Shown: positions 30,082-42,131 of the stretch, piece after piece
How the letters are laid out: every line of letters starts with the position of its first letter
Position numbering within the stretch: position 1 is the first letter of the stretch
Source of the DNA: Candidatus Woesearchaeota archaeon
GTDB taxonomy: Archaea; Nanobdellota; Nanobdellia; Pacearchaeales; GW2011-AR1
NCBI GenBank assembly: GCA_964555925.1
Contig: CAZKUJ010000001.1
Coordinates: 1 to 45,971 of the forward strand
Reading direction: 5' to 3'
DNA length: 45,971 bases
Made by a program: the position numbers and the translations under genes
Notes under the pieces: generated by a model
Seen by the model: only the letters and a program-made list of their open reading frames with translations
The model's database searches: none
Told to the model about the DNA's origin: nothing

Positions 30082-30588
30082 ATGGTTGAAGAAACAATAC
30101 TGCAACATTGGATTTTTACTAAGTTTGCATTGCCTTTTCTTTTGATATTCTTTATAGTTTTTGGAATTCTTGAAAAAACGAAAATTTTCGGTTCTGGAAA
30201 ACAACTTAATGCGCTGATTTCATTTGTTATTGGAGCAATTTTTGTTGTGGCGGTTTCTCCAAAACTCGTTGTTTCTAACTTAATACTCTTTTTGACTGTT
30301 GCTTTGGTTGTTATGTTTGTTGCACTTTTGCTTTGGGGATTTCTCGCAGGAGAAGAAGGGCTAAAATTTGAAAAAGCACCAATTGGGTTAAAATATTTTA
30401 TTGGAATTGTAGTTGTAATTTCTGTTCTTGTTGGTCTTCTCTGGGCGACGGGCGTTGAAAAAACCTTTTTAGGAAATATCTTTGATTTCTTTTTTAATCA
30501 ACCTTGGAGTTCAACGTTCTGGATAAACGCACTTTTTATTGCTGTTATAATCATTGCCCTTGTTCTTGTTCTAAAAAAATCTAAATGA
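30082..30588 (+). CDS. polytopic membrane protein (family shared with the next gene)
   Basis: 168 aa. ALPFLLIFFIVFGILEKTKIFG aligns with ILPFLLIFALVFGILTRVKIFD of the neighbour. Confidence 0.55.
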   Translation: MVEETILQHWIFTKFALPFLLIFFIVFGILEKTKIFGSGKQLNALISFVIGAIFVVAVSPKLVVSNLILFLTVALVVMFVALLLWGFLAGEEGLKFEKAPIGLKYFIGIVVVISVLVGLLWATGVEKTFLGNIFDFFFNQPWSSTFWINALFIAVIIIALVLVLKKSK

Positions 30589-30635: not shown

Positions 30636-31199
30636 ATGATTGATGAAATTTTCACTCTCCAAATAGGAAGCTTTTATGGGGGATCTATTGGGAATATGTT
30701 GGCATATTGGGGGAGTGCGGGATTCTTTAGTTATATCCTCCCTTTTCTTTTGATCTTTGCTCTTGTTTTCGGAATTCTAACAAGGGTCAAGATTTTTGAT
30801 AATAAAGCAATTAATGGTGTTATCGCGCTTGTTGTAGGGCTTTTATCATTACAATTTCATTTTGTACCAATGTTCTTTTCAGAAATCTTTCCTAGATTAG
30901 GGGTGGGTCTTGCAGTAATTCTTTGTTTGCTTATTTTAGGAGGTCTTTTCTTTGATCCTAAGAACAAGATGTTAAATTATGGTCTTTTAGGTGTGGGAGT
31001 TATTGTTTTTCTTGTTGTTTTAGTTCAAACATTTGGATGGTTGGGATGGTGGAATCTTCAAATATGGTACTATAATTGGCAGGGAATATTAGGGGTCGTT
31101 ATATTTTTAGCAATTATTGGATTAATTGTTGGTTCTGGAAGCAAGAAAAAACTTCCAGATTATCAGGCTAAGATGTTTGAACCATCACCTTCAGGTTGA
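30636..31199 (+). CDS. polytopic membrane protein (paralog of 30082..30588)
   Basis: 187 aa. Shared N-terminal helix motif and similar TM layout. Confidence 0.55.
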   Translation: MIDEIFTLQIGSFYGGSIGNMLAYWGSAGFFSYILPFLLIFALVFGILTRVKIFDNKAINGVIALVVGLLSLQFHFVPMFFSEIFPRLGVGLAVILCLLILGGLFFDPKNKMLNYGLLGVGVIVFLVVLVQTFGWLGWWNLQIWYYNWQGILGVVIFLAIIGLIVGSGSKKKLPDYQAKMFEPSPSG

Positions 31200-31248: not shown

Positions 31249-32130
31249 TTAATGAGGTGTTCTTTTATGGCTCTTTTTTCTAACAAGATGCTTAGTGCGA
31301 TGCACAGAAGATTCGAGATGCTTATTTTCTGCTTTATTGGCTAAAACATTAACAATTTTTCCAAAGGAATCTTGCATCATACCCATTTCTTTTTTTATAC
31401 TATCTAAACCACCACCATATGATCCGACTCTTTCAAGTATTTCTGCTTGTAACCTATCGATGCTATATTCTATTTTTTTTAACCTATCAGAAATTGAATC
31501 AACTTTTGTTTGAGTTAGAGCTTTTAATTCATTTAGACCTTCTAGTTGTTTTTGAAGTGGTTTTATTTTTTCAAAAAATACTCTTTCTGCAACCTCTATT
31601 ATTGTATCTATGTCTCCTGCAGACTGAGAACTGTAATCATATTCTCCTGATCCGGGATATTCTTCAGAGGGATATTCCTGGGGAGAGTATTGCTGTTCTT
31701 CATAAGCGGGATATTGTTGTTCGGGGTATTGTTCGTATTGTTGTTCAGAATAAGCAGGATATTGTGGTGGTGCTTGAGAATTTGAATATGAATATTCTTC
31801 AGGCATTTCTTTAACTAAAGGAGCCCCTCCCCTCTTTGAATAATGCTGAAATCTTGACGGAGTTGGCGGGGGCATTAAATCTTCATCAGAGATTGAGCCC
31901 TCAGTAGGTAAAGATTCTGATTCTTCAGATACCATTATTGAGGGTTCCATACCTTCCATACCTTTTTCTTCTAAATCTTCTCCAGGAGAAACCGCATTTT
32001 TTATTTTTGCTTGGCTTAAAGTTTCTGTTATTTCTTTTGGAGAAATTCCCTGCTCTCTTAATCTATTGACAATTGCTTCTTCAGGGAACCCATTTCTTTT
32101 TAATTCCATAACTTGCTCTAAAATCCCCAT
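31249..32130 (-). CDS. protein with small N-terminal helical domain, Q/Y/P/E-rich low-complexity centre and C-terminal coiled coil
   Basis: 293 aa. Repeats of QQYPAY/EQYPEQQY; C-terminal heptad region. Confidence 0.5.
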   Translation of the reverse strand: MGILEQVMELKRNGFPEEAIVNRLREQGISPKEITETLSQAKIKNAVSPGEDLEEKGMEGMEPSIMVSEESESLPTEGSISDEDLMPPPTPSRFQHYSKRGGAPLVKEMPEEYSYSNSQAPPQYPAYSEQQYEQYPEQQYPAYEEQQYSPQEYPSEEYPGSGEYDYSSQSAGDIDTIIEVAERVFFEKIKPLQKQLEGLNELKALTQTKVDSISDRLKKIEYSIDRLQAEILERVGSYGGGLDSIKKEMGMMQDSFGKIVNVLANKAENKHLESSVHRTKHLVRKKSHKRTPH

Positions 32131-32145: not shown

Positions 32146-32484
32146 TTATTTTTTTAAATCTTTTTTTCTTACAAATTCTAAAGGCTGGAACATCTTTGCT
32201 TGTTTTGAAAGAATTTCAAGATCTTCCTTTCTCGCAAATTTTGAAAATTCTGATGAAGCAACTTCTAAAAAAGAAGTTAATCTTTCAATATTCTTTTTCA
32301 TTAGTTCAAAATTCTTTTTTATTTCTAATAGGTCTTTATTGTTTTTTTCTTTCATCTCGACGAGATTTTGACCTATAAGCAAGAGGCGATCTTTCAAAAT
32401 CCGGTGTTTTTCTTCTAAATCTCTTATTCTTACATTAATATCATTTAAAAATTGCCAATCCCCACCCCCTTGTTCCTCAATCAT
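32146..32484 (-). CDS. coiled-coil protein
   Basis: ATG at 32484 (the ORF track extends to a TTG at 32544). Heptad-rich 112 aa, 15 nt upstream of the previous gene's start. Confidence 0.5.
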   Translation of the reverse strand: MIEEQGGGDWQFLNDINVRIRDLEEKHRILKDRLLLIGQNLVEMKEKNNKDLLEIKKNFELMKKNIERLTSFLEVASSEFSKFARKEDLEILSKQAKMFQPLEFVRKKDLKK

Positions 32485-32633
32485 CAAAAATAAAGGGGAA
32501 GGCAGTTTAAATTTGTTGTGTTTAATCTGCGAATCTATTAACAATGTATAGAAAGAGCATTAATATATTTTTTTCTAAATGTTTTATATGCAAAATATTT
32601 TAAACTACCGCTCTTTTTTATTTGAGTTCTAAA

Positions 32634-34919
32634 ATGCCACAAGAAAGAGACAGCCATCCATATGAAATCAAAAGAGAAGGGGGAGAAGACATTCTTTATA
32701 TAAATTATTTGGGCGCACCTTATGTTCCCAATTTAGCAGAGTCTCCAGAAGTTATGGAAAGAACTATTGATGTGCTTACTGAAAACCAAAATGTCTCGAG
32801 AATTATCTTTTCACAACAAAAGAATTATAATTATGATTTTAGAGAAACTTCTTATCTTTTGGAAATTGCGTATCTTTATATTCATCTGATGAAACAAGAG
32901 AGAATTCTTTCAAAGAATAAACTAGCGCCAACTCAAGACATGTTTTTCTCTAAAAGATACAATGAAATCTTTTCCTTTTTACTTCTATTAAAACAAGACC
33001 CAATTGCGGCCTATTTTGAAGTAAAAAAGCTGATTATTTCTGAAAAAATATTTCTGGAAAAACTAGGAGCAACAAATAGATCAAATCAGTCGAATTACTT
33101 GAATCTTCTTGAAAAAATTCGTGAAATGCTAGAAAAAACAAAATTAATTCAGGACGCCACCATTTATTTAGAAGGTTATAGAAAGGGGGAGAGAGAAATT
33201 TACAACAAACTTTTTAAGCCAGATGTAATACCTAATTTTACTTTTACAAGACTTGTTTCAGACTTGCCCGGAGATGCAGAAATAATAGACCAGTATAAAC
33301 TTGTTCATGAAGAGTACGATGTTTCTTTTGTAACAATTTTGAAAAAAAAGGACGAGCCCAAACTTTTATATCATCTGATTCCTCCGGAAAGCACTTTAAG
33401 AGAAGACCATAGCATTCTTTTGAATTTAGCTAGAAGAGTTCTTGTAGAGCATCAACCAAAAGCTGAAGAGTTTACTGACATAGAAAGAACACGCAGAGTT
33501 TTTTTTAATATTTCAAGGGATCTTTTGAGAGATCTTGCACAGGGCAAGGGAATAAAAATTAATTATTCAGAACTTAATTTGCTAGCGACTATTTTGGTAA
33601 GACATACTGTTGGTTTTGGAGTTATTGAAGTTCTTTTACAAGATAAGAAAATTCAAGATATTTTTTTAAATGCGCCGATTTCATTAATACCTATTTTTAT
33701 TAGACACCAGAATTATGATGAGTGTTCAACTAATATAATTCCGAGCCAGGAAGATACTGACTCTTGGGCAGCTAAATTTAGATTAATTTCTGGAAGACCT
33801 CTTGATGAAGCAAATCCAATTTTAGATACACAGCTTGAAATTGGTCCAATAAGAGCAAGAATCGCGGTAGTTCAAAGACCCCTTTCACCAGACGGACTTG
33901 CTTATGCAATAAGAAGGCACAGAGAAGCACCTTGGACTTTTCCTTTATTTGTGCAGAATAAAATGATTAATCCCCTAGCAGCAGGACTTCTTAGTTTTTT
34001 AACAGATGGCTCTAGAACAATTTTGATTGCAGGAACAAGAAGCTCTGGTAAAACAAGCTTGCTGGGTAGCTTAATGCTTGAAATAATTCCAAAATATCGA
34101 ATAATTGTTATTGAAGATTCATTAGAGTTGCCAGTTGAGTGTCTTAGAAATTTGAAATATGATATTTTGAGAATGAAAGTTAGATCTGCTTTATTAAAAG
34201 AAACAACAGAAATTTCTGCTGATGATGGAATACGAGCATCTCTTAGACTTGGCGATAGCTGTTTAATCATTGGAGAGGTAAGAAGTTTAGAAGCAAGAGC
34301 CCTATACGAGGCAATGAGAATTGGGGCTTTGGCGAATGTTGTCGCAGGAACAATTCATGGGGCATCTCCATACGGGGTTTTTGACAGAGTTGTTAATGAT
34401 TTAAAAGTACCTGCAACTAGTTTTAAAGCTACAGACGTAATTGCTGTTGCAAATCCCATAAAAACCTCAGATGGATTACACTCTTGGAAAAGAGTTGTAA
34501 GGTTATCTGAAGTCAGGAAACATTGGAAGAAAGATCCATTGGAAGAAAAAGGATTTGTTGATTTATTAACCTATAATGTGGAGAAAGATGAATTAGAACC
34601 AACAGAAGATTTAATTAACGGAGATAGTGAAGTTATAAAAGATGTTGCTTCTAGCGTAAAAGGCTGGGCTGGAAACTGGGACGCTGTTTGGGATAATATT
34701 CTTTTAAGATCAAAAATAAAAGGAGAGCTCGTGAACACGGCTGAAAAAATTAAAGATTATAGAATTCTTGAAGCTGATTTTAATACACTCTCTAATCATG
34801 TTTTTCATAGAATCTCAGATGAAATAAGAGAAGAGGTAGGACTTCCAATTAGTGAGAGGGTTTTTCCAGATTGGCAAAAATGGCTGAATTCTGAAATAAA
34901 GAAAAGAAAACTTATCTGA
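32634..34919 (+). CDS. type IV pilus/secretion (PilB/FlaI/VirB11 superfamily) assembly ATPase with long N-terminal region
   Basis: Walker A AGTRSSGKTS at about residue 470, Asp box IVIEDSLEL, Walker B CLIIGEVR, His box AGTIHGAS. Alternative TTG start at 32622. Confidence 0.9.
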   Translation: MPQERDSHPYEIKREGGEDILYINYLGAPYVPNLAESPEVMERTIDVLTENQNVSRIIFSQQKNYNYDFRETSYLLEIAYLYIHLMKQERILSKNKLAPTQDMFFSKRYNEIFSFLLLLKQDPIAAYFEVKKLIISEKIFLEKLGATNRSNQSNYLNLLEKIREMLEKTKLIQDATIYLEGYRKGEREIYNKLFKPDVIPNFTFTRLVSDLPGDAEIIDQYKLVHEEYDVSFVTILKKKDEPKLLYHLIPPESTLREDHSILLNLARRVLVEHQPKAEEFTDIERTRRVFFNISRDLLRDLAQGKGIKINYSELNLLATILVRHTVGFGVIEVLLQDKKIQDIFLNAPISLIPIFIRHQNYDECSTNIIPSQEDTDSWAAKFRLISGRPLDEANPILDTQLEIGPIRARIAVVQRPLSPDGLAYAIRRHREAPWTFPLFVQNKMINPLAAGLLSFLTDGSRTILIAGTRSSGKTSLLGSLMLEIIPKYRIIVIEDSLELPVECLRNLKYDILRMKVRSALLKETTEISADDGIRASLRLGDSCLIIGEVRSLEARALYEAMRIGALANVVAGTIHGASPYGVFDRVVNDLKVPATSFKATDVIAVANPIKTSDGLHSWKRVVRLSEVRKHWKKDPLEEKGFVDLLTYNVEKDELEPTEDLINGDSEVIKDVASSVKGWAGNWDAVWDNILLRSKIKGELVNTAEKIKDYRILEADFNTLSNHVFHRISDEIREEVGLPISERVFPDWQKWLNSEIKKRKLI

Positions 34920-35008
34920 TTTTGCTTAAAAACCTAAAATTTATTAACCAATTCTTATTGATGTTTAAATAATAGATATTGAAAAAGAGGGAAAAATAAA
35001 ATATAAAC

Positions 35009-37171
35009 ATGTCTAGAGATGTCGATGAGATTCTTAGAAAATATAGCAGTAAACTTGGATCCAAGATTTCTGCTTCAGATAAAAAAGAAATAGATTATAG
35101 CAGAGAATATGTAAAATTCAAAGGCGAAATGCTTCCTGAACTTTCAAGATATGAAAGATTATGCAAAAGCTTAGGAAGTGCAATAAAATTGAAATTTTCA
35201 GAAAAGGACACACAGAAAGTTAAAAAATCTCTTGAAATAGCCCATCTTGACCTTGAGCCTTGGCAGCCTTTAACATTTAGTGTTATGACTTTTATTTTTG
35301 TTTTTTTAGCAGGACTTTTTATCTCTTTAGCTGTTATTTTGATTAAGGGAAGTTTTGAATCTTTTCCGATTTTATTTTTCTTTCTTGTTATAATTTTTTC
35401 TATTTTTATTTTTTATTTTATGAATGCATATCCTGCCAGACTCGCCAATAAATGGCGTCTAAAAGCTTCTGCACAGATGGTTCCTGCTATTTTATATGTT
35501 GTAGTTTATATGAGGCATACATCAAATTTAGAGAGAGCAATTGCTTTTGCATCAGAAAATTTAGAGTATCCTCTTGCATTGGATTTAAAGAAAGTTTTTT
35601 ATGATGTTCAAGTTGGAAAATTTTCAACTATAAAGGCAAGTCTTGATCATTATCTAGAAACATGGAGAGACTATTCTGTAGAATTTATTGAGGCATTTCA
35701 TCTTATTGAAAGCAGTTTATATGAGCCAGATGGGTCAAGAAGAATTATAACTCTTGAAAAAGCCCTAAAAGTTGTTCTTGATGGAGTTTACGATAGAATG
35801 TTGAGATTCACTCACAATGTAAAAAGTCCTTTAACAAATGTTTACATGCTGGGCATTGTTCTTCCAACACTTGGTTTGGCATTACTTCCTCTTGCAAGTG
35901 CTATGTTGGGAGGCTTATTAACTTGGGTCCATGTTTTTGTGCTTTTTAATTTGATAATTCCTTTTTTTGTTTTTTATTTAACAGACAGAGTTACTTTTTT
36001 GAGGCCAGGAGGATATGGGGAAACTTCTCTGCTTGAGAAAAATCCCCTTTATTATAAATATAAAAGTAAAAAACCATATGTCAAAACATTTTTTTTGATA
36101 TTTCCTCTTTTGCTTATAGGATTGTTACCTCTTATCTTTGCATTTACTCCTTTACCTGATTTCTTAGGATTACAAAAAGATTATTCTTTTTCAGATTTTG
36201 GTCTGAATTTTTTTGGAACAGGAGGATTTTTTGGTTTTATTGAAACTACGACAGGTCTTAAGGGTCCTTTTGGAACAGGAGCCCTAATTCTAAGCATGCT
36301 TGTTCCCCTTAGCATCGCCCTATTCTTTTCTTTATCTTTTAAAATGAGAACAAAAGAACTGATTATTGAAAGAGATAAAACAAAGCAACTTGAACTTGAA
36401 TTTAATAACTCTTTATTTCAGGTCGGAAATAGAATAGGTCAGGGGGTTCCTACTGAACTTGTTTTCGCAAAAGTCGCAGAGTCTTCTAAGGGATTGAAAA
36501 CAGAAGATTTTTTCAGAAGAGTGGATTACAACATAAGGCAGATGGGCATGAGTGTTGAAAAAGCTATTTTTGATTTAAGAAGAGGGGCAATTATTCATTA
36601 TCCTTCTGAATTAATCTCTATTAGCATGAAAATTCTTGTTGAATCTGCTAAAAAAGGATTAAAAATTGCGGCCATTAGTGTAATGAGTATTTCAGAATAT
36701 GTTAAGAATATTCACAAAATAACAGCCCGGCTTAAAGATATGCTTGCAGAAGTTGTTTCAGATATGAAGAGCAATATGTCTTTCCTTGCTCCTCTTCTTT
36801 CTGGAGTTGTTGTTGGTTTAGCCGCAATGATTACTGAAATTCTAACGAGATTAGAGATAACAAAGATTGCAGAAGGTGGAGAAGCAGCTGCGTCTTTGGG
36901 TGGACTTGCGTCTTTATCTAATTTATTTGAAGTTGGAATGATGATTCCTCCTTATTTTTTGCAAATAATAATCGGTGTTTATCTTATTCAAATCATTTTT
37001 ATATTAACAAGAACTCTAGTGATTGTGGATTTTGGAGAAGATAGGCTTCAAACAACATATAATCTCGGAAAAAGCTTTACTTCAGGAATAGTTCTTTATT
37101 TTATCACTGCACTTTTCTCCACAATTGCCTTGTTTGTTCTGGTAAACATCGTTCTTGGAAATTTGGTTTAA
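35009..37171 (+). CDS. polytopic platform protein (FlaJ/TadC/PilC-like) of the pilus machinery
   Basis: 720 aa. Two blocks of TM helices separated by soluble helical domains. Sits immediately downstream of the ATPase, as in archaeal pilus operons. Confidence 0.6.
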   Translation: MSRDVDEILRKYSSKLGSKISASDKKEIDYSREYVKFKGEMLPELSRYERLCKSLGSAIKLKFSEKDTQKVKKSLEIAHLDLEPWQPLTFSVMTFIFVFLAGLFISLAVILIKGSFESFPILFFFLVIIFSIFIFYFMNAYPARLANKWRLKASAQMVPAILYVVVYMRHTSNLERAIAFASENLEYPLALDLKKVFYDVQVGKFSTIKASLDHYLETWRDYSVEFIEAFHLIESSLYEPDGSRRIITLEKALKVVLDGVYDRMLRFTHNVKSPLTNVYMLGIVLPTLGLALLPLASAMLGGLLTWVHVFVLFNLIIPFFVFYLTDRVTFLRPGGYGETSLLEKNPLYYKYKSKKPYVKTFFLIFPLLLIGLLPLIFAFTPLPDFLGLQKDYSFSDFGLNFFGTGGFFGFIETTTGLKGPFGTGALILSMLVPLSIALFFSLSFKMRTKELIIERDKTKQLELEFNNSLFQVGNRIGQGVPTELVFAKVAESSKGLKTEDFFRRVDYNIRQMGMSVEKAIFDLRRGAIIHYPSELISISMKILVESAKKGLKIAAISVMSISEYVKNIHKITARLKDMLAEVVSDMKSNMSFLAPLLSGVVVGLAAMITEILTRLEITKIAEGGEAAASLGGLASLSNLFEVGMMIPPYFLQIIIGVYLIQIIFILTRTLVIVDFGEDRLQTTYNLGKSFTSGIVLYFITALFSTIALFVLVNIVLGNLV

Positions 37172-37210
37172 TTTAGTTAAATTTATTAAATAGTATTTGT
37201 TTTTTTTTCT

Positions 37211-37378
37211 ATGATCTTTTTTAAAAAAGGGTGTGGAAAAAAAGCAATAGTCTCTGATTATCTTCCATGGATTTTAATAGCTGTAGCTGTTCTTGTGATT
37301 CTTATGATTACAATTTTTTTGCTTAGAGGAAGAGGAGTTTCACTTATAGATCAAATTAAAAGTCTTTTAAGAGGATAA
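37211..37378 (+). CDS. mini single-TM protein (55 aa), not in the ORF track
   Basis: MIFFKKGCGKKAIVSDYLPWILIAVAVLVILMITIFLLRGRGVSLIDQIKSLLRG. KKG then a hydrophobic helix. Packed 2 nt before the next ORF. Confidence 0.4.
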   Translation: MIFFKKGCGKKAIVSDYLPWILIAVAVLVILMITIFLLRGRGVSLIDQIKSLLRG

Positions 37379-37380
37379 AA

Positions 37381-37539
37381 ATGGAATTAACACTTGAAAA
37401 TCTTATAAAAATCATTATTGGAGTTTTAGTCTTTGTCGTAGTGGTTTCAGGAATTTATCTTTTCTTTAAAACCTATGTGATAGAATTTTTTATAGGAGGA
37501 AATTCAACATCTGAATTAATCCTGACTCTGATAAAATAG
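37381..37539 (+). CDS. mini single-TM protein (52 aa), pilin-helix-like without leader
   Basis: MELTLENLIKIIIGVLVFVVVVSGIYLFFKTYVIEFFIGGNSTSELILTLIK. Its N-terminus resembles the predicted mature N-terminus (ELTTQQLVIIIVLIV) of the 38162 prepilin. Confidence 0.4.
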   Translation: MELTLENLIKIIIGVLVFVVVVSGIYLFFKTYVIEFFIGGNSTSELILTLIK

Positions 37540-37552
37540 AAATTCATAAAAA

Positions 37553-38032
37553 ATGTATAATAAAAAAGGATTTTTGTTAGCAGAAGAAACTCTAAAAATA
37601 ATTCTTGCAGTAATTGCTATTGGATTTCTTGTTTATTTGCTTTTTTCTGTTTATAAAACAAATAAAGATTCAGGAAATTTAGAGTTAGCAAAAGCATCTA
37701 TGGAGACCCTGGTTTCAGGAATTAATAATAGTAAAGCAAGAATTGAAATCTATAATCCGAGCAATTGGATAATTTGTTCTTGGCCAAATCCGTACTCTAC
37801 TGGTTTTGGACCTTTTCAGAGCATTAAATTAGGAATGCCGAAATTCTGTTCAAATTTAGGATTGGATAATTGTTTGTGTATTTGTAAAAAGGAAAATCCT
37901 GATTCTTGTGATAAAAATGGGATTTGTAGAGAGAATTCCTGGAGTTTATTACTTGACAAAAACATAAAAATAGATAATCCCCCCATAACTCTTTTCATAG
38001 ATTACGATGCTAAAAAGATTTTAAAAATTTAA
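37553..38032 (+). CDS. prepilin-like protein (class III signal peptide), Cys-rich
   Basis: MYNKKG|FLLAEETLKIILAVIAIGFLVYLLF. Basic leader, Gly, hydrophobic helix, Glu at +5; 8 Cys in the globular part. Confidence 0.65.
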   Translation: MYNKKGFLLAEETLKIILAVIAIGFLVYLLFSVYKTNKDSGNLELAKASMETLVSGINNSKARIEIYNPSNWIICSWPNPYSTGFGPFQSIKLGMPKFCSNLGLDNCLCICKKENPDSCDKNGICRENSWSLLLDKNIKIDNPPITLFIDYDAKKILKI

Positions 38033-38054
38033 ACGAATCAATAAAACAATAAAA

Positions 38055-38159
38055 ATGGATACAGAAGAACTAATAAAATATTTGATCTGGGTTGTTTTTT
38101 TCGCCATAGCATTGGCAGGAGTTTATTTTTTGTTAAGAAAAATAGGAGTAATTGGCTAA
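38055..38159 (+). CDS. mini single-TM protein (34 aa)
   Basis: MDTEELIKYLIWVVFFAIALAGVYFLLRKIGVIG. Fills the 38033-38161 gap; its stop lies 2 nt before the next ATG. Confidence 0.3.
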   Translation: MDTEELIKYLIWVVFFAIALAGVYFLLRKIGVIG

Positions 38160-38161
38160 AA

Positions 38162-38899
38162 ATGAAAAAAATAAATAAAAGAGGAGAATTAACAACACAA
38201 CAGCTGGTTATAATTATTGTTCTTATTGTAAGTTTTATCATTATTTTATTTTTGTTGTTTAGATTGAATCTTGGAGAGACAACCAATAAAGAAATTTGTC
38301 ATAATTCTGTTGTTCTAAAAGCAAAATCAGCAGGATTATCTGGCCCTCTCGATTGCAGAACAAATTACCTTTGTATTTCTGGCGGAAAAGATTGTAAGGG
38401 AATAACCCCCACATCTACAGTTAAAGTTAATCCTAAGAATAAAGAAGAAATTATGAAAGCTCTTGCAGATGAAATGGTCGATTGTTGGTGGATGTTTGGC
38501 GAAGGGGAAATTACTTATGCAGATAAATCTCTTGCTCAGAAAACTTCGTGTTCTCTTTGTTCTATTGTTGAATTTGATGAAAGTTTTAAAGAAATTGATC
38601 CAATTTCATATATAGAATTTTATAATTACCTAAGTACAACTTCAAAAACAACTCCACAAACATATCTTCAGTATTTATATCCGACCAATAACCTAAATGA
38701 ATTAAGCAAAGAACTTAAGCTTGCAAATTATTTCGATAAAAATTTAGAATTTGATAAGACTTACTCTATTCTAACTGGAATGGAAAGAAGCATTGTTTTG
38801 GGATTATTTGGGAGTTCCCATGTTCCTGTAGTAATTTTAGAAAAAAGCAAAGAAAATTACGAGGCTGTTGGATGCGACATCTTTTTAACAAAAGCTTAA
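38162..38899 (+). CDS. prepilin-like protein (class III signal peptide), Cys-rich, largest of the set
   Basis: MKKINKRG|ELTTQQLVIIIVLIVSFIIILFLLF; 245 aa. Confidence 0.65.
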   Translation: MKKINKRGELTTQQLVIIIVLIVSFIIILFLLFRLNLGETTNKEICHNSVVLKAKSAGLSGPLDCRTNYLCISGGKDCKGITPTSTVKVNPKNKEEIMKALADEMVDCWWMFGEGEITYADKSLAQKTSCSLCSIVEFDESFKEIDPISYIEFYNYLSTTSKTTPQTYLQYLYPTNNLNELSKELKLANYFDKNLEFDKTYSILTGMERSIVLGLFGSSHVPVVILEKSKENYEAVGCDIFLTKA

Positions 38900-38900
38900 A

Positions 38901-39302
38901 ATGAAAACTCTAATAAAAAAAAAGAATGGTGAGATTTTAACAGAGAATATAATTTTTATAATTCTTAATTTGGTTTTTCTTTCAATATTGGTAGTGTTTT
39001 TGTTTTCACGTACATCTACTGCTGCTGTTTTTGAAGAAAAATATGCAAAGCAAATAGCTTTAGCTCTTGATTCTGCAGAGCCTGGAATGACTATTTATTT
39101 AGAAATGAAAGATGCAATAAAAATTGCAAAAAAGAATTCCATTAATCTGGAAAATGTTATTTCAATTAGAGACAATCTTGTTACAGTTAGATTGCGTGAT
39201 GGTGAAGGATATAGTTATTCTTTTTTCAATAATGCACAAGTTACTGCAAGATTTGATACTGAAAGTGAAGAAAAATATTTTTTTGTGATAGATAAAAAAT
39301 GA
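38901..39302 (+). CDS. prepilin-like protein
   Basis: MKTLIKKKNG|EILTENIIFIILNLVFLSILVVFLF, Glu at +5; 133 aa. Confidence 0.6.
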   Translation: MKTLIKKKNGEILTENIIFIILNLVFLSILVVFLFSRTSTAAVFEEKYAKQIALALDSAEPGMTIYLEMKDAIKIAKKNSINLENVISIRDNLVTVRLRDGEGYSYSFFNNAQVTARFDTESEEKYFFVIDKK

Positions 39303-39308
39303 ATAAAA

Positions 39309-39806
39309 ATGAATAAAAAAGGAGATAAACTAATATCAGTGTATTGGTTTGCAGTATTATTTATAGTGGCTGCTGCAATTGTTTATATGGTGCATGCTTT
39401 TTATGGGAAACCTTATGATGTTAGGCCCATAGAAGCAGATATTCTAATTTCGAAAATTGCGCGATGTCTTTCTGAAACAGGGCATATTAAAGAAGGAGTT
39501 TTTGAAGAAAACTTTAAAGAAAATTTTAGAGGCATATGCAAATTGAATTTTCGGGTAGAAGATGTCTATGGTTGGAGAGAGCAAGAACAATATTATGTGG
39601 AGATTGAAATTTTGAAATTTGACTCTACAGAAAGCGTTCTTTTCCTTGAAGACGGAAACAAACAGCTGAGAGATTTTTGCGGCCGCGATGAAAAAAATTT
39701 TCCGAGGTGTCTTGAAAGAAGTCTGTACTCTTTAGATAAGGATGGAAATTCGTATAAAATAAATCTTGTTTCAATTGTAAGAAAAACAGAAAAAAATGTT
39801 TATTAA
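39309..39806 (+). CDS. prepilin-like protein
   Basis: MNKKG|DKLISVYWFAVLFIVAAAIVYMV; 165 aa. Confidence 0.55.
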   Translation: MNKKGDKLISVYWFAVLFIVAAAIVYMVHAFYGKPYDVRPIEADILISKIARCLSETGHIKEGVFEENFKENFRGICKLNFRVEDVYGWREQEQYYVEIEILKFDSTESVLFLEDGNKQLRDFCGRDEKNFPRCLERSLYSLDKDGNSYKINLVSIVRKTEKNVY

Positions 39807-40320
39807 AAAATTCAAAAATAAAAGAGGACAAACAGGTGAAACACTTACTTGGATTATTGCTACATTAATAATTATTGTAATTTTACTTATCGCGATTTCT
39901 ATTGCGAACTTTATGGGAAATAATAAAAAATTTGATTATGTTAAGAAAACAGATACTCTGGCGTCAAAATCTCTTTTTGCTTATCTTCTAACTGAAGACA
40001 CAGAGGGGCAGACTGTTTATGAGCAATTAAAAGAAGCTGGAAATTTTACTAAATTTAATGGAGAATTGGCGGTTGATATTTTTAAAAAATTTTATGGGGG
40101 GGAGTTTCAACAAGTTTGGTTTGGGATTAGCAATTATAATAAAGGGCTTATGGGAGGAACATGGAATGGAGAATCTAATAATTATTTTGGAAATAAACCC
40201 AAATCCACTGCTGTTGGACAGGGGGGAGTTGTGGCTGAAAAAAATTCTTTATCAATTATGATTCATAAAGAAGAAAACTCTATTATAGAGTTACTTTTTG
40301 TATGGGGGTTAAAATCATGA
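39796..40320 (+). CDS. prepilin-like protein
   Basis: MFIKKFKNKRG|QTGETLTWIIATLIIIVILLIAISI; 174 aa; 11-nt overlap with the upstream gene. Confidence 0.65.
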   Translation: MFIKKFKNKRGQTGETLTWIIATLIIIVILLIAISIANFMGNNKKFDYVKKTDTLASKSLFAYLLTEDTEGQTVYEQLKEAGNFTKFNGELAVDIFKKFYGGEFQQVWFGISNYNKGLMGGTWNGESNNYFGNKPKSTAVGQGGVVAEKNSLSIMIHKEENSIIELLFVWGLKS

Positions 40321-40616
40321 AAAACAAACGCGGAGATATCCCGATAACAATTCTTGTAATCGGAGTTTTGGCGATTTGCATTACAGCGATTCTTAGTTTT
40401 TCTCTTTCAAGCAAATCTTCAAAAAATGATTTTAGCACCCTCGATACAGTAGAAGAAGTTTTAGTGATAAAAGAAAAAATATCCCTATACTCTAAATTAG
40501 GATTTAGTGAGGAAGAAATTATTAAAATTTTAGGAATTCAATATGATGAAAATTTAAAAACAAAATATATTCTTAGAGAAAATGGACCTGTAATTGTGAG
40601 ATACAATCTTCCGTAA
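40317..40616 (+). CDS. prepilin-like protein
   Basis: The ATG at 40317 forms an ATGA overlap with the upstream stop. MKNKRG|DIPITILVIGVLAICITAILSF; 99 aa. Confidence 0.6.
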   Translation: MKNKRGDIPITILVIGVLAICITAILSFSLSSKSSKNDFSTLDTVEEVLVIKEKISLYSKLGFSEEEIIKILGIQYDENLKTKYILRENGPVIVRYNLP

Positions 40617-40632
40617 TAAAGTAAATAAAAAC

Positions 40633-40642
40633 ATTTTTAAAC
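40633..40642 (+). promoter_or_regulatory. TATA box ATTTTTAAAC centred about 25 nt upstream of ATG 40663
   Basis: The only pilin-like gene preceded by a real intergenic gap (46 nt) with a correctly spaced TATA element. Confidence 0.45.
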
Positions 40643-40662
40643 AAAATAACCTTGAAATTAAT

Positions 40663-41019
40663 ATGAAAAATAAAAGAGGGCAAGGGCTAAGCACAAATGC
40701 CATTATTCTTATAATTTTAGGAGTTGTAGTTTTGGTTGTTATGATCTTGGGATTTACCCTTGGTTGGGGCACATTGTTTCCTTTCCTTTCAGGCAATAAT
40801 GTTGAACAAATAAAAACTAATTGTGGTGTTGCGTGTTCGACTGGAAGTACTTATGATTATTGCATTCAAGAAAGAAATTTAAAAGCAGATGGTCTTCCTG
40901 GGGGAGACAAAGAGGTGAAAGGCACTTGCTTTTCCTTTTCCACAACAACTGGTTTTGAAAAATACGGTATTGCAAGATGTCAACAATTAGAATCCGGATG
41001 CCCACAGCCAACAAGCTAA
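40663..41019 (+). CDS. prepilin-like protein, candidate major pilin
   Basis: MKNKRG|QGLSTNAIILIILGVVVLVVMILGF, a textbook archaeal class III signal peptide. 118 aa, 6 Cys, own promoter. Confidence 0.7.
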   Translation: MKNKRGQGLSTNAIILIILGVVVLVVMILGFTLGWGTLFPFLSGNNVEQIKTNCGVACSTGSTYDYCIQERNLKADGLPGGDKEVKGTCFSFSTTTGFEKYGIARCQQLESGCPQPTS

Positions 41020-41270
41020 AAATAATTTATTAAGAATCTTTTGTGGGCATTCTGCGATTTTAAATAAATTTTAATTTTTAATTGAATTCTGAAAAATATT
41101 TAAACGAGATATTCTATTTTTAGATATGGATTATGCCTTTCCTCAAAAGAGAAAAAAGAAGCAAGATAAAAAGAAAGAGAGGAAAAAACACCCTTATAAA
41201 CAAGGGGGGAGAAACAGATTAAGAAAATCCTGCCCGAGCATTTTATAAAGATTATTTGCTATTTTTCCTT

Positions 41271-42131
41271 ATGGGTGAATTCATATTTATCTTTTTTTTA
41301 GCAATAGTCTGGTTAATTTTTGCAGCAATTCAAGATTTGAGGAGTAGAGAAATAGCAAATTGGTTAAATCTTTCTCTAATAACCTTTGCATTGGGATTTA
41401 GATTCTTTTATTCTCTTTTTTCAGAAAGTTTTAGCTTTTTTTATCAAGGAATTTTTGGGTTAGTAATCTTTTTTATAATAGGAAATCTTCTTTACTATGG
41501 GAAATTTTTTGCAGGAGGTGACGCTAAACTCATGATGGCTCTTGGAACAATATTACCTTTCTCAGAAACTTTTTCAATAAACTTGTCTATCTTTTTAATA
41601 TTCTTTCTGATATTTTTTATTGTTGGAGCACTTTACACGATTTTTTCAACGATATATCTTAGTTTAAGCAATTTTAATGCGTTTAAAAAAGAATTCTCTG
41701 CGAATTTTAAAAAAAATAAGAAAGTTATTTTTCTGATTTTTCTTTTAGGTTTACTTATATTAATTTTTGGATTTTGGGAAGATGTTTTTTTCCTTTTAGG
41801 AATTTTAATTTTTCTTTTACCTTATTTTTATGTTTATGTAAAAGCAGTTGATGAATCTTGTTTAGTAAGGGAAATAAAGACAAATCAAATTCGAGAAGGA
41901 GACTGGCTCTATAAAAATTTGACAATCGGAAAGAAAATAATCAAAGCAGATTGGAACGGTTTAGGTAAAAAAGAAATACTACAATTAAAGAAAGCATATA
42001 AAACTGTCTTAATTAGATACGGATTACCTTTTTCTCCTGTATTTTTAATAAGTTTTTTGATTCTTTTTTATTTTTGGAAAACCCAAGCATTTGAAATCTT
42101 ATTGAATTTTTTAGGGAATTCTTTTTGGTAA
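41271..42131 (+). CDS. A24-family prepilin/preflagellin peptidase (PibD/FlaK/EppA-like)
   Basis: Two catalytic Asp contexts: AAIQDLRSREI and FFAGGDAKLMMALG (GxGDxKL). Polytopic. The ORF track starts at the TTG at 41256. Confidence 0.8.
   Translation: MGEFIFIFFLAIVWLIFAAIQDLRSREIANWLNLSLITFALGFRFFYSLFSESFSFFYQGIFGLVIFFIIGNLLYYGKFFAGGDAKLMMALGTILPFSETFSINLSIFLIFFLIFFIVGALYTIFSTIYLSLSNFNAFKKEFSANFKKNKKVIFLIFLLGLLILIFGFWEDVFFLLGILIFLLPYFYVYVKAVDESCLVREIKTNQIREGDWLYKNLTIGKKIIKADWNGLGKKEILQLKKAYKTVLIRYGLPFSPVFLISFLILFYFWKTQAFEILLNFLGNSFW

What the first reader, a model, noticed from the sequence alone, without database searches (positions are those of the whole stretch)
32622..42131. Complete, pilin-rich type IV pilus-like locus
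About 9.5 kb on a single strand encodes the following, in order. First a PilB/FlaI-superfamily ATPase, then a 720-aa polytopic platform protein. Next come seven consecutive proteins whose N-termini all follow basic leader-[KR/N]G-hydrophobic helix (KKG|F, KRG|E, KNG|E, KKG|D, KRG|Q, KRG|D, KRG|Q). Three helix-only mini-ORFs are interspersed, and an A24 aspartyl prepilin peptidase closes the set. The genes are tightly packed (ATGA and 11-nt overlaps). I saw no archaellin-type FlaB or FlaF/G/H-like genes, so this looks like an adhesion or uptake pilus rather than an archaellum. Seven distinct pilin-like subunits plus an enlarged ATPase and platform is unusually elaborate for what appears to be a small-genome archaeon. 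It is the best candidate here for a host-attachment or DNA-uptake apparatus of uncharacterised composition.
Basis: partly seen in the sequence, partly recalled or inferred. Interest (0 to 1): 0.72.

Follow-up and report, generated by a model that had tools for sequence, protein, structure and literature searches.

The report
Conserved DPANN type IV pilus locus
This is a real, complete gene set for building a type IV pilus-like surface filament (not a swimming archaellum) in a tiny Pacearchaeota-type archaeon; it is conserved gene for gene in hundreds of related species, yet its subunits are invisible to standard annotation.

Summary
Window 32622-42131 (+ strand) encodes these parts:
- a GspE/FlaI/TadA-family ATPase with all four nucleotide motifs
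- a 720-aa platform, shown to be GspF/PilC-like only through distant relatives and a fold match
- eight proteins, not seven, with a conserved [KR][KR][G/A]-cleavage motif followed by a hydrophobic helix
- two leaderless single-helix mini-proteins
- a previously unnoticed, conserved 40-aa basic mini-gene
- an A24 peptidase with both catalytic Asp residues

At least 593 species genomes (Pacearchaeota, Woesearchaeota, Nanoarchaeota) hold a relative of the platform. About 25-45 of the fetched loci keep the whole gene order. The ATPase (73%) and platform (67%) are better conserved than RPA or EF-1beta.

Conserved TATA boxes at exactly -29..-22 from four ATGs (m55, p118, m40, peptidase) point to leaderless transcription units. 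With ATPase+platform these give five units: ATPase+platform, nine coupled genes, p118 alone (likely major pilin), the mini-gene, and the peptidase.

No archaellum component is present. No pilin matches any known pilin family, and the largest one has no fold match in the PDB.

Verdict: a lineage-wide, divergent variant of a known kind of machine, the archaeal type IV filament system. It is closest in layout to 'System 2'. Function (attachment versus uptake) is inferred, not shown. Interest is moderate.

The parts
32634..34919 (+). Secretion/assembly ATPase of the GspE/FlaI/TadA superfamily. It is 761 aa from the ATG at 32634; the ORF opens at a TTG at 32622. A conserved extension of about 215 aa precedes the core.
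   Evidence: Pfam T2SSE 8.5e-13. NCBIfam TadA family 119 bits and FlaI 116 bits, both far below their cut-offs. The best solved relative is afGspE (2oap) at 5e-28, then CpaF at 4e-22 and FlaI at 5.6e-14. Motifs: Walker A GTRSSGKT nt 34032-34055; Asp box nt 34101-34127; Walker B LIIGEVR nt 34263-34283; His box GTIHG nt 34347-34361. The N-terminal extension is conserved (71% column identity) and has no PDB sequence match.
35009..37171 (+). Polytopic platform protein, 720 aa. It is a divergent GspF/PilC/TadC/FlaJ-type protein with two repeats in one gene.
   Evidence: The window copy has no Pfam or PDB sequence hit. Of 48 diverse full-length relatives, 13 hit Pfam T2SSF (best 3e-10), at residues about 134-281. 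The AF2 model (pLDDT 81, pTM 0.80) matches the EpsF/OutF/PilC cytoplasmic domains with Foldseek probability 0.96-1.00, TM 0.69-0.75 and rmsd about 3 A. N-half against C-half gives hhalign E 0.0024, in register.
37182..37189 (+). TATA-like box TTTATTAA, at -29..-22 from the m55 ATG. Predicted promoter of the nine-gene unit m55 to p104.
   Evidence: The consensus of 63 orthologous upstream regions keeps AaaTTTATTAA at a fixed distance.
37211..37378 (+). m55: a 55-aa helix-only protein with a class-III-like leader. It resembles Flp/EpdE-type pilins and is an alternative candidate for the major subunit.
   Evidence: In 64 orthologues the site reads -3 K, -2 K/R, -1 G (60) or A (4), +4 E/D, +5 Y. 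Other gene callers also call it. No Pfam or NCBIfam match.
37381..37539 (+). m52: a 52-aa single-helix protein without a leader. Its N-terminus resembles a mature pilin N-terminus (M-ELT-I/L-..-LIKIIIG).
   Evidence: Found in 61 of 82 loci, median identity 54%. hhalign links it to m34 (93%) and aligns m52 residue 2 with p118 residue 8, just after the cleavage site.
37553..38032 (+). p159: a pilin-like protein with KKG|FLLAEE, so it has a bacterial-style Glu at +5. Its C-domain is Cys-rich.
   Evidence: Across 57 orthologues: -1 G/A in 56, +1 F in 41, +5 E in 44. Conserved Cys columns. No significant PDB or Pfam match.
38055..38159 (+). m34: a 34-aa single-helix protein without a leader. The N-terminus is acidic and the C-terminus basic, which by the positive-inside rule predicts N-out and C-in.
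   Evidence: An intact 31-41-aa ORF in 57 loci, median identity 58%.
38162..38899 (+). p245: the largest pilin-like protein, with KRG|ELTTQQ and eight conserved Cys. Candidate tip or adhesin subunit.
   Evidence: The family has 791 database homologues, all 'hypothetical' with no Pfam domain. AF2 model: pLDDT 86.6, pTM 0.79, N-terminal helix 12-34 followed by an alpha/beta domain. No PDB fold match (best E 0.66, TM 0.12).
38901..39302 (+). p133: a pilin-like protein with KNG|EILTEN (Glu at +5) and no Cys.
   Evidence: Across 52 orthologues: -1 G/A in 49, +5 E in 43, +6 N in 50. N at -2 in the window copy is rare (4 of 52).
39309..39806 (+). p165: a pilin-like protein with KKG|DKLISVYWF and four conserved Cys.
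   Evidence: Across 49 orthologues: -1 G/A in 48, +1 D/E in 42, +2 K in 45.
39796..40320 (+). p174: a pilin-like protein with KRG|QTGETLTW. It overlaps p165 by 11 nt.
   Evidence: Across 38 orthologues: -1 A/G in 36, +1 Q in 33, +4 E/D in 32. The -11 overlap with p165 is the median across 34 loci.
40317..40616 (+). p104: a pilin-like protein with KRG|DIPITILV. The likely start is the ATG at 40317, which gives an ATGA overlap with p174; the ORF opens at 40302.
   Evidence: Across 40 orthologues: -1 G/A in 39, +1 D in 31, +3 P in 34.
40627..40641 (+). BRE-like AAAAACA followed by TATA box TTTTTAAA, at -29..-22 from the p118 ATG. Predicted dedicated promoter for p118.
   Evidence: The element is nearly identical at a fixed distance in most of 38-42 loci. 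The p104-to-p118 gap has a median of 46 nt and is never 10 nt or less, unlike most other junctions in the block; only p245-to-p133 is also often 30 nt or more.
40663..41019 (+). p118: a small pilin-like protein with KRG|QGLSTNAIILIILG and six conserved Cys. Best candidate for the major filament subunit.
   Evidence: +1 Q in 41 of 42 orthologues, with a very conserved mature N-terminus. It has its own conserved promoter. Archaeal pilins in the PDB appear only at non-significant E values of 0.4-1.3.
41126..41248 (+). m40: a conserved 40-aa, highly basic, soluble mini-protein (consensus ...KR.K.K.KKKEKKKHPYKKGG.R...). A TATA-like box (TATTTAAA) lies at 41097-41104. Its membership in the system is uncertain.
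   Evidence: The region is 72-84% identical at nucleotide level in more than 30 species. Third-position synonymous changes show it is coding. The ORF is intact in 32 of 33 loci. It stays upstream of the peptidase where the pilin block is missing (L061, L065) and where the peptidase is inverted (L024). No Rfam, Pfam, NCBIfam or PDB match.
41256..42131 (+). Class III signal (prepilin) peptidase of family A24. The probable true start is the ATG at 41271, preceded by TATA box TTTATAAA at 41242-41249. A C-terminal extension adds further predicted transmembrane segments.
   Evidence: Pfam Peptidase_A24 1.1e-14. FlaK structure 3s0x at 1.4e-8, with D27 (IQDLRSREI) and D89 (AGGDAK) aligned to FlaK's DFRSREI and GGGDGK; their identity as FlaK's catalytic Asp residues is from my own knowledge. 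NCBIfam FlaK 47.7 bits against a cut-off of 330, so it is not a FlaK orthologue. Promoter evidence.

Best explanation
The locus is the lineage-wide type IV filament (T4P-like) machine of Pacearchaeota and Woesearchaeota archaea.

Shown here:
- It encodes one hexameric-type secretion ATPase.
- It encodes one fused two-repeat GspF/PilC-like platform.
- It encodes a dedicated A24 aspartyl peptidase.
- It encodes eight substrates that share a conserved [KR][KR][G/A]-cleavage motif followed by a hydrophobic helix.
- It also encodes two leaderless single-helix proteins.
- All of these are conserved in order across many species and are as constrained as core housekeeping genes.

Inferred mechanism:
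1. The prepilins insert with the basic leader in the cytoplasm.
2. The peptidase cuts after the G/A.
3. The ATPase, docked on the platform's cytoplasmic bundles, uses ATP to lift mature subunits out of the membrane into a helical filament held together by the N-terminal helices.
4. The six tightly coupled, stoichiometrically produced subunits p159 to p104 form an initiation or tip complex. The Cys-rich p245, whose predicted fold has no match in the PDB, is the likeliest distal or adhesive element.
5. p118 has its own conserved strong promoter and is the bulk subunit (about 55%). The Flp-like helix-only m55 is the alternative (about 30%).
6. m52 and m34 are membrane-embedded assembly partners or leaderless pilin mimics.

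The most likely role is attachment to a host cell or surface (about 50%). A retractile uptake role is the main alternative. It is not a motility archaellum.
For: Core components:
- ATPase family and motifs.
- Platform homology through relatives (13 of 48 hit T2SSF) and through fold.
- Both catalytic Asp residues of the peptidase align to FlaK.

Substrates:
- The cleavage motif is nearly invariant at -3, -2 and -1 across 38-64 orthologues in each of eight families.
- The eight families are related to one another only through the leader and helix, in register.
- The p245 model has a pilin-like layout, an N-terminal helix followed by an alpha/beta head.
- Conserved Cys sets occur in p118, p159, p165 and p245, consistent with an extracellular location.

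Conservation and organisation:
- At least 593 species genomes hold a relative of the platform, and the whole gene order is kept in the longer loci.
- Median identity is 73% for the ATPase and 67% for the platform, against 59% for RPA and 44% for the EF-1beta-like gene.
- Coupled or overlapping junctions link the genes from m55 to p104, and conserved TATA boxes at -29..-22 define the units.

Literature: the layout matches the published description of archaeal 'System 2', namely an N-extended ATPase, a single platform gene, SPIII pilins, pilin-like proteins without SPIII, and small membrane proteins.
Against: - No filament, cleavage event or expression was observed. Everything beyond homology is inference.
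- Only 2 of 7 N-termini satisfy the strict FlaFind hexamer, because 3-8 polar or mixed residues separate the cut site from the hydrophobic core.
- No pilin matches any known pilin or archaellin family by sequence.
- The p245 head has no structural match, so 'pilin' rests on the N-terminal architecture and on context.
- The window's own platform gives no direct Pfam hit.
- Pilins conserved at 36-48% identity are not what one expects of fast-evolving host-specific adhesins, which weakens the attachment reading relative to a generic uptake or structural role.
- Neighbouring unrelated genes (HIT, the EF-1beta-like gene, RPA) are also syntenic, so gene order alone does not prove functional linkage.
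Confidence: 0.8

Rival explanations
1. The machine is the same, but its job is uptake rather than adhesion. It would be a short, retractile Com/Tad-like pseudopilus that pulls DNA or other macromolecules through the S-layer. That would feed an organism described as lacking amino-acid, lipid and cofactor synthesis.
For: - The subunits are as conserved as housekeeping proteins across species. That fits a generic ligand better than host-specific adhesion.
- Several subunits carry a bacterial-style Glu at +5 (p159, p133), and m55 has a Flp-like acidic-Tyr pair.
- The core of the ATPase scores best against TadA/CpaF-type models. Tad pili extend and retract with a single ATPase (my own knowledge).
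- Pacearchaeota are reported to lack many biosynthetic pathways.
Against: - No ComEC, ComEA or DprA-like gene lies in the window. The rest of the genome was not available.
- No DNA-binding feature was identified in any subunit.
- No retraction ATPase is present.
- In some relatives the locus carries large secreted proteins inserted at its junctions. That is more suggestive of surface adhesion.
Confidence: 0.2
2. It is a secretion or surface-assembly pseudopilus (T2SS-like or bindosome-like). It would never form an external fibre and would instead position or export envelope proteins.
For: - Many co-expressed 'minor' subunits are present, and no single subunit has been proven to be the abundant fibre former.
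- The ATPase also matches the bindosome ATPase model BasE weakly (60 bits).
- SPIII-dependent non-filament systems are described in archaea (abstract read).
Against: - No SPIII-bearing solute-binding protein or exoprotein cargo gene is in the locus.
- The BasE score is far below its cut-off of 1000.
- p118 has a dedicated, very conserved promoter, as expected for a bulk structural subunit.
Confidence: 0.1
3. It is an archaellum, a rotary motility filament.
For: The ATPase aligns over most of its length to the FlaI model (E 1.4e-33). The nearest named peptidase model is FlaK.
Against: - The FlaI score is 116 bits against a cut-off of 550, and the FlaK score is 47.7 against 330.
- None of 100 subunit sequences hits an archaellin or any other known pilin model.
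- No FlaF, FlaG, FlaH, FlaC/D/E or FlaX match was seen in the genes scanned. These were all the locus genes and 20 of the larger flanking ORFs; several ORFs between 1 and 23000 were not scanned.
- The ATPase has a large N-terminal extension, which the 2026 census reports as absent from archaellum ATPases.
Confidence: 0.02
4. The small ORFs and 'pilins' are chance hydrophobic ORFs in an AT-rich genome, and only the ATPase, platform and peptidase are real.
For: The window is about 31% G+C, so long spurious ORFs and lysine-rich N-termini are easy to obtain.
Against: - Every one of them is an intact, collinear ORF in dozens of species, with conserved motifs and conserved Cys residues.
- 7 of the 8 motif hits in the whole window fall in this block.
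- The p245 family alone has 791 database members.
Confidence: 0.01

Closest known systems
Archaeal TFF 'System 2' / Makarova clade 2. These are euryarchaeal pili such as Haloferax volcanii PilB3-PilC3 with PilA pilins; the solved ATPase afGspE (2oap) is from Archaeoglobus, a genus in which the census reports System 2-like loci.
   Same: - An ATPase with a long N-terminal extension.
- A single-gene platform.
- Several SPIII pilins, together with pilin-like proteins lacking SPIII and small membrane proteins (description read).
- afGspE is the best solved relative of the ATPase.
- Clade 2 was reported to include a few nanoarchaeal ATPases.
   Different: - None of the subunits hits a known pilin Pfam model. 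The signature System 2 pilins (PilA/arCOG02416, arCOG02911) are the relevant ones, and from my own knowledge their Pfam model is Pilin_N/DUF1628. arCOG profiles could not be run.
- A dedicated peptidase is encoded in the locus.
- The window carries no large adhesin gene.
- The platform is too divergent for a direct Pfam hit.
- Phylogenetic placement of the ATPase was not tested.
Epd pilus of Methanococcus maripaludis ('System 1')
   Same: - A multi-gene locus with many minor pilins.
- A dedicated in-locus prepilin peptidase.
- A helix-only pilin lacking a globular domain (compare m55).
- Gln at +1 in some substrates (p118, p174), as in EppA substrates (my own knowledge).
- System 1 is reported in some DPANN.
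   Different: - System 1 has two separate platform genes, whereas here there is one fused 720-aa gene.
- The Epd major pilin is encoded elsewhere.
- Orthology to Epd proteins was not demonstrated or testable here.
Bacterial Tad/Flp pilus
   Same: - The best NCBIfam model for the ATPase core is the TadA family, and CpaF structures are strong hits.
- m55 is a short, helix-only subunit with an acidic-Tyr pair just after the cut site, like the Flp G|xxxxEY motif.
- There is a single ATPase and no PilT.
- The peptidase shows no Pfam or NCBIfam match beyond its A24 domain, so no methyltransferase domain was detected.
   Different: - The TadA score (119 bits) is far below its cut-off of 373.
- m55 does not hit the Pfam Flp model, and its E/D-Y pair sits one residue closer to the cut.
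- The platform is fused rather than split into TadB and TadC.
- It is archaeal, with no secretin and no TadZ/TadG set.
Bacterial Com pseudopilus / T2SS minor-pilin sets (monoderm-type TFF)
   Same: - One ATPase, one platform, one peptidase, one presumed major subunit and a block of co-translated minor subunits.
- Glu at +5 in some subunits.
   Different: - No sequence or fold match to ComG or Gsp pseudopilins.
- Six to seven minor subunits rather than four.
- No DNA-translocation genes nearby.
Archaellum (ArlB/F/G/H/I/J)
   Same: The same superfamily of ATPase, platform and peptidase.
   Different: - No archaellin, ArlF, ArlG, ArlH or ArlCDE/X.
- The ATPase and the peptidase score far below the FlaI and FlaK equivalog cut-offs.

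Membership tests
Type IV filament (TFF) superfamily machine | Secretion ATPase of the GspE/PilB/FlaI/TadA family with Walker A, Asp box, Walker B and His box | tested here: met
   Pfam T2SSE 8.5e-13. PDB hits afGspE, CpaF and FlaI. All four motifs located.
Type IV filament (TFF) superfamily machine | Polytopic platform of the GspF/PilC/TadC/FlaJ family (two T2SSF repeats) | tested here: met
   The window copy has no direct Pfam hit. However, 13 of 48 full-length relatives hit T2SSF. The AF2 model matches the EpsF/OutF/PilC cytoplasmic domains with probability 0.96-1.00 and TM about 0.7. The internal repeat is only weakly supported (E 0.0024).
Type IV filament (TFF) superfamily machine | Class III signal peptidase (A24) with two catalytic Asp residues | tested here: met
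   PF01478 at 1.1e-14. D27 and D89 (GGD) align with the DFRSREI and GGGDGK motifs of FlaK 3s0x.
Type IV filament (TFF) superfamily machine | At least one substrate with a class III signal peptide: a short basic leader, G/A at -1, then a hydrophobic helix | tested here: met
   In eight families, -3 K/R, -2 K/R and -1 G/A are nearly invariant over 38-64 orthologues. The program FlaFind itself could not be run.
Type IV filament (TFF) superfamily machine | Strict FlaFind core hexamer [KRDE][GA][ALIFQMVED][ILMVTAS]x3 | tested here: not met
   Only p159 and p245 match; five of the seven reader-listed proteins do not. Of those five, four have polar or mixed residues at +2 to +4, and p133 fails on N at -2. 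m55 does not match either. The pattern was written from memory.
Archaellum | Archaellin (ArlB/FlaB) filament genes | tested here: not met
   No archaellin or other known pilin model was hit by the window proteins or by 100 orthologous subunit sequences.
Archaellum | ArlF/ArlG stator, ArlH, and ArlCDE or ArlX accessory genes | tested here: not met
   No significant match among the scanned window genes, namely all the locus genes and 20 of the larger flanking ORFs. There is only an insignificant FlaC_arch hit (E 0.12) in up293. Several ORFs between 1 and 23000, and the rest of the genome, were not checked.
Archaellum | The ATPase is an ArlI/FlaI orthologue | tested here: not met
   NCBIfam FlaI equivalog scores 116 bits against a cut-off of 550. 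No formal phylogeny was possible.
Archaeal TFF System 2 / clade 2 | N-terminally extended ATPase and a single platform gene | tested here: met
   The alignment to afGspE starts at query residue 220. The extension is conserved. There is one 720-aa platform gene.
Archaeal TFF System 2 / clade 2 | SPIII pilins together with pilin-like proteins lacking SPIII and small membrane proteins | tested here: met
   Eight SPIII-type proteins plus the leaderless m52 and m34. The feature is as described.
Archaeal TFF System 2 / clade 2 | Signature pilins (PilA arCOG02416 family; arCOG02911) | tested here: not met
   No known pilin Pfam model hit in 100 sequences. From my own knowledge, Pilin_N/DUF1628 is the relevant Pfam model. 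arCOG profiles were not available, so distant membership is not excluded.
Archaeal TFF System 2 / clade 2 | The ATPase branches within clade 2 in a phylogeny | not testable with these tools
   No reference set of archaeal ATPases could be fetched. The only indirect indication is that afGspE is the best PDB hit.
Epd pilus / System 1 | Two separate platform genes | tested here: not met
   A single fused 720-aa gene in the window and in all 82 loci.
Epd pilus / System 1 | Helix-only major pilin and a dedicated peptidase | tested here: inconclusive
   m55 is helix-only with an SPIII-like site, and a peptidase is in the locus. Orthology to EpdE or EppA was not testable.
Bacterial Tad/Flp pilus | Flp-family pilin, TadA/CpaF equivalog ATPase, and split TadB/TadC | tested here: not met
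   m55 has no Flp Pfam hit. TadA scores 119 bits against a cut-off of 373. The platform is fused.

The most novel reading that the evidence does not exclude
The locus would be a distinct, so far unclassified subtype of archaeal type IV filament system, specific to the Pacearchaeota/Woesearchaeota radiation and essential to it.

Under this reading:
- It uses orphan subunit families, including a tip protein whose predicted fold has no match in the PDB (p245).
- It has a new class of leaderless 'pre-matured' mini-pilins (m52, m34).
- It has a Flp-like helix-only subunit.
- It works as a single-ATPase extend-and-retract device that mediates host contact or macromolecule uptake.

That would make it the DPANN counterpart of the Patescibacteria pili that drive episymbiosis.
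Probability: 0.25. Interest if true: 0.7.

Novelty: new variant of a known kind. Interest (0 to 1): 0.5.

Why it matters
Pacearchaeota and Woesearchaeota are among the most widespread DPANN archaea. How they live is described as enigmatic, and no host is known.

In the bacterial counterparts of these organisms (Saccharibacteria), type IV pili have been shown experimentally to trigger episymbiosis (titles and abstracts). For these archaea the pilus genes are effectively invisible:
- The platform and all the subunits are annotated 'hypothetical' and carry no Pfam domain.
- A dedicated Pacearchaeota genome paper never mentions pili.
- One preprint argued that pili identify cells as CPR because T4P components are 'missing in DPANN genomes'. 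That wording was not found in the published version.

This work gives experimenters concrete targets. It shows that a complete locus is widespread: at least 593 species genomes hold the platform, and the longer loci keep the full gene order. It shows the locus is strongly constrained. It defines the parts list, the cleavage motifs and the promoter structure. These can be used as:
- profiles for re-annotating metagenomes
- peptides to look for in metaproteomes
- candidate major and tip subunits for cryo-EM or cryo-ET

It does not overturn any concept. The general point that DPANN T4P islands hold unrecognisable pilins was made in 2019.

Tried and rejected
1. Direct annotation of the platform failed with Pfam, NCBIfam and a PDB sequence search. 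It was resolved only through a search of 50%-identity cluster representatives, Pfam hits in distant relatives, and a fold search.
2. Profile searches of the p118 and p159 families against PDB sequences gave only non-significant hits. Archaeal pilins 8fjs, 8tib and 8fk7 and a geopilin appeared at E 0.36-1.3. This is not usable as evidence.
3. A Foldseek search of the confident p245 model against the PDB found no match.
It was redone with a closer alignment.
The two remaining homologue searches were therefore spent on building admissible alignments.
6. The conserved element between p118 and the peptidase was first suspected to be an RNA. Rfam found nothing credible at gathering or relaxed thresholds. 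Codon-position variation then showed it is a protein-coding mini-gene.
7. Large distances between the ATPase and the platform in other loci were first suspected to be inteins. This was rejected: the ATPase is uninterrupted and the extra DNA is inserted genes.
8. The N-terminal extension of the ATPase gave no PDB sequence match.
9. A formal ATPase phylogeny against FlaI, PilB, AapE, UpsE and Epd clades could not be built, because no reference sequences were obtainable with the tools.
10. The sigma-70 promoter scanner was not used, because the organism is archaeal. Upstream regions anchored on the start codons were compared across species instead.

Full report
**1. What is in the sequence**

| Label | Coordinates | Note |
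|---|---|---|
| ATPase | 32622/32634-34919 | |
| platform | 35009-37171 | 720 aa |
| m55 | 37211-37378 | |
| m52 | 37381-37539 | |
| p159 | 37553-38032 | |
| m34 | 38055-38159 | |
| p245 | 38162-38899 | |
| p133 | 38901-39302 | |
| p165 | 39309-39806 | |
| p174 | 39796-40320 | |
| p104 | 40302/40317-40616 | |
| p118 | 40663-41019 | |
| peptidase | 41256/41271-42131 | |

- The quoted N-terminal motifs are exact.
- The genes are packed as described. p165 and p174 overlap by 11 nt. p174 and p104 share an ATGA overlap if p104 starts at its second ATG. Several other junctions have gaps of 1-2 nt.
- A six-frame scan of the whole window looked for a basic-[KR][GA]-spacer-hydrophobic-run N-terminus. 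It returned eight ORFs, seven of them in this block. The cluster is therefore not a composition artefact of a 31% G+C genome.

**2. Organism and context**

- Flanking genes are archaeal housekeeping genes: Orc1/Cdc6, both PolD subunits, an RPA-like OB-fold protein, XPF/ERCC4 and a helicase. There is also a gene that reads like aEF-1beta, which was not scanned.
- The platform protein is identical to one found on JGI metagenome contigs.
- It is 92% identical to the copy in a 'Candidatus Pacearchaeota' MAG.

**3. Core machinery**

ATPase:
- It hits Pfam T2SSE.
- It carries Walker A, the Asp box, Walker B and the His box.
- Its best solved relatives are afGspE of Archaeoglobus (5e-28), CpaF (4e-22) and FlaI (5.6e-14).
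- Against NCBIfam it scores 119 bits on TadA (cut-off 373) and 116 bits on FlaI (cut-off 550). It is an orthologue of neither.
- About 215 residues precede the region that aligns to afGspE. This extension is conserved among orthologues (71% column identity) and has no PDB sequence match.

Platform:
- It gave nothing with Pfam, NCBIfam or a PDB sequence search.
- An exhaustive search found 1041 cluster representatives with E up to 0.001. Full-length relatives reach down to 27% identity in that search.
- Of 48 such relatives, 13 hit Pfam T2SSF (best 3e-10), over residues about 134-281.
- An AF2 model built on a mixed-depth alignment has pLDDT 81 and pTM 0.80. It matches the cytoplasmic domains of EpsF, OutF and PilC with Foldseek probability 0.96-1.00, TM 0.69-0.75 and rmsd about 3 A.
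- The two halves align in register, but weakly.
- It is therefore a divergent, fused, two-repeat GspF/PilC/TadC-type platform.

Peptidase:
- It hits Peptidase_A24.
- It aligns to the FlaK structure, with its two Asp residues (D27, D89) aligned to FlaK's DFRSREI and GGGDGK motifs.
- It scores far below the FlaK equivalog cut-off.

**4. Subunits**

- tblastn shows the full gene order in the loci with enough flank. The order is: up293(-), up132(-), ATPase, platform, m55, m52, p159, m34, p245, p133, p165, p174, p104, p118, peptidase, HIT(-), EF-1beta-like gene(-), RPA.
- Each subunit family has a nearly invariant site: K/R at -3, K/R at -2, G/A at -1, and a family-specific +1 to +6 signature.
- m55 belongs to this set (K[KR]G|[IV][IV]S[ED]YLPW). 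It is helix-only, like Flp/EpdE-type pilins.
- m52 and m34 have no leader. m52 aligns from its second residue to the mature N-terminus of p118, and m52 and m34 are related to each other.
- p159 and p133 carry Glu at +5, as bacterial pilins do.
- The strict FlaFind hexamer, which I wrote from memory, fits only p159 and p245. In most of the others a short polar stretch precedes the hydrophobic core.
- No subunit, and none of 100 orthologues, hits any pilin or archaellin Pfam family.
- Profile searches against the PDB were not significant.
- p245 has 791 database homologues, all 'hypothetical'. It folds confidently (pLDDT 86.6) into an N-terminal helix followed by an alpha/beta head. The model has no PDB match.
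- Conserved Cys sets in p118, p159, p165 and p245 fit an extracellular location.

**5. Constraint**

Over 25 loci that hold all 18 genes, the median identities are as follows.

| Gene | Median identity |
|---|---|
| ATPase | 73% |
| platform | 67% |
| up132 | 62% |
| m55 | 60% |
| RPA | 59% |
| m34 | 58% |
| m52 | 54% |
| peptidase | 52% |
| p133, p118 | 48% |
| HIT, EF-1beta-like gene | 44% |
| other pilins | 36-43% |

The machine is as constrained as core information-processing genes. That suggests an indispensable role. It also argues against rapidly diversifying, host-specific adhesins.

**6. Transcription architecture (new)**

- Junctions from m55 to p104 are mostly 10 nt or less, or overlapping. 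The exception is p245 to p133, where about half the loci have a gap of 30 nt or more.
- The p104-to-p118 gap has a median of 46 nt and is never 10 nt or less.
- I aligned upstream regions on their start codons across species. This reveals TATA boxes at exactly -29..-22 before four genes:
  - m55: TTTATTAA
  - p118: AAAAACA followed by TTTTTAAA, almost invariant
  - the newly found mini-gene m40: TATTTAAA
  - the peptidase: TTTATAAA, measured from the ATG at 41271, which is therefore the likely start
- The platform has no such box and is presumably co-transcribed with the ATPase.
- In some lineages an extra copy of the m55-type box precedes p133.
- The predicted units are ATPase+platform, m55 to p104, p118, m40, and the peptidase. 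The spacing implies leaderless mRNAs.
- A dedicated, highly conserved promoter makes p118 the best candidate for the bulk subunit. m55, as the first cistron of a leaderless operon, is the alternative.

**7. Mechanism (inference)**

1. Prepilins insert with the basic leader inside the cell.
2. The A24 peptidase cuts after G/A.
3. The ATPase, docked on the platform's cytoplasmic bundles, drives subunits from the membrane into a helix-packed filament.
4. The translationally coupled set p159 to p104 forms a priming or tip complex, with p245 as the probable distal element.
5. m52 and m34 act in the membrane.

With a single ATPase, retraction cannot be excluded; Tad pili retract with one motor (my own knowledge). 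For function I weigh attachment at about 0.5, uptake at about 0.2-0.25, and a secretion or pseudopilus role at about 0.1.

**8. Comparison with known systems**

- The layout matches the 2026 census description of archaeal 'System 2': an N-extended ATPase, a single platform gene, SPIII pilins, pilin-like proteins without SPIII, and small membrane proteins.
- The 2016 classification noted a few nanoarchaeal ATPases in that clade.
- The locus differs from System 1 (Epd), which has a split platform.
- It differs from the archaellum, because none of the archaellum-specific parts is present.
- A 2019 review had already noted that DPANN T4P islands contain FlaI- and TadC-type genes plus unrecognisable predicted pilins.
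- This is therefore a divergent variant of a known kind, not a new kind.
- Membership in System 2 is not established. The signature pilin families were not matched, and no ATPase phylogeny could be built.

**9. Significance**

Annotation pipelines miss the platform and all the subunits. A Pacearchaeota-focused genome paper does not mention pili. One preprint assumed that DPANN lack T4P components, a statement I did not find in the published version. The parts list, motifs and promoters defined here make the system searchable and testable.

Noticed in passing
window 41126-41248 (+): A conserved 40-aa, very basic mini-gene (consensus M-D-Y-x-F-S/P-E/Q-K-R-N/K-K-x-K-D/N-K-K-K-E-K-K-K-H-P-Y-K-K-G-G-...) lies in the supposed gap before the peptidase. 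The ORF is intact in 32 of 33 species, and synonymous third-position changes show it is coding. It has its own TATA box at -29..-22, and its 3' end overlaps the peptidase promoter. It stays with the peptidase when the pilin block is absent or the peptidase is inverted. There is no match in Rfam, Pfam, NCBIfam or the PDB.
   Followed up: yes
window 31249-32130 (-) and 32146-32544 (-): Two divergently transcribed, coiled-coil-looking proteins (293 aa and 132 aa) sit next to the ATPase in 48-49 of the 82 loci. The 132-aa one is 62% conserved, more than RPA. Neither has a significant family match; up293 gives only an insignificant FlaC_arch hit at E 0.12. They could be cytoplasmic accessory or regulatory partners of the ATPase. 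General synteny is high here, so linkage is unproven.
   Followed up: partly
L023:3121-7884, L023:11129-12883, L023:13376-15241, L012:2626-4521, L052:11188-13707 and others: In related species the ATPase/platform and platform/m55 junctions are insertion hot spots. Some inserts are large secreted proteins (roughly 400-1600 aa); four of them share the N-terminus '...VSAGWFxDFWGKITG...' or a close variant, and these are possible adhesins. Other inserts are HEPN/MNT-like pairs, UvrABC or RecQ. The window itself has no insert and no copy of the motif.
   Followed up: partly
L014, L016, L030, L032, L034 and others (p245 orthologues of about 300 aa): The longer orthologues of p245 carry an extra Gly/Ala-rich hydrophobic segment of about 50-60 residues shortly before the conserved C-terminal Cys. 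The window's 245-aa form lacks it. This may be a second membrane or oligomerisation segment.
   Followed up: no
window 8386-8890, upstream of Orc1/Cdc6 (8891-10102), followed by PolD DP1 and DP2 (10142-15858): A non-coding, AT-rich stretch of about 500 nt has TA-repeat palindromes (8538-8595). These are flanked by a 34-nt inverted repeat pair (8500-8533 and 8744-8777). It lies directly upstream of orc1/cdc6 and looks like a replication origin.
   Followed up: partly
window 4678-5690: A stretch of about 1 kb has no ORF longer than 66 aa. It has no tRNA and no Rfam match, even at relaxed thresholds. It is unexplained.
   Followed up: partly
window 30082-30588 (+) and 30636-31199 (+): Two adjacent polytopic membrane proteins (168 and 187 aa) with no family match lie just upstream of the locus neighbourhood. 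Whether they are conserved with the locus was not checked.
   Followed up: no
L061, L065 (loci of two other Pacearchaeota/Woesearchaeota MAGs): The pilin block is absent between the platform and the peptidase, replaced by unrelated genes (in L061, ORFs that read like glycosyltransferases; not scanned). The ATPase lies more than 6 kb from the platform; in L061 the intervening ORFs read like UvrABC. The system can therefore be fragmented, and the pilin genes are presumably elsewhere in those genomes.
   Followed up: no
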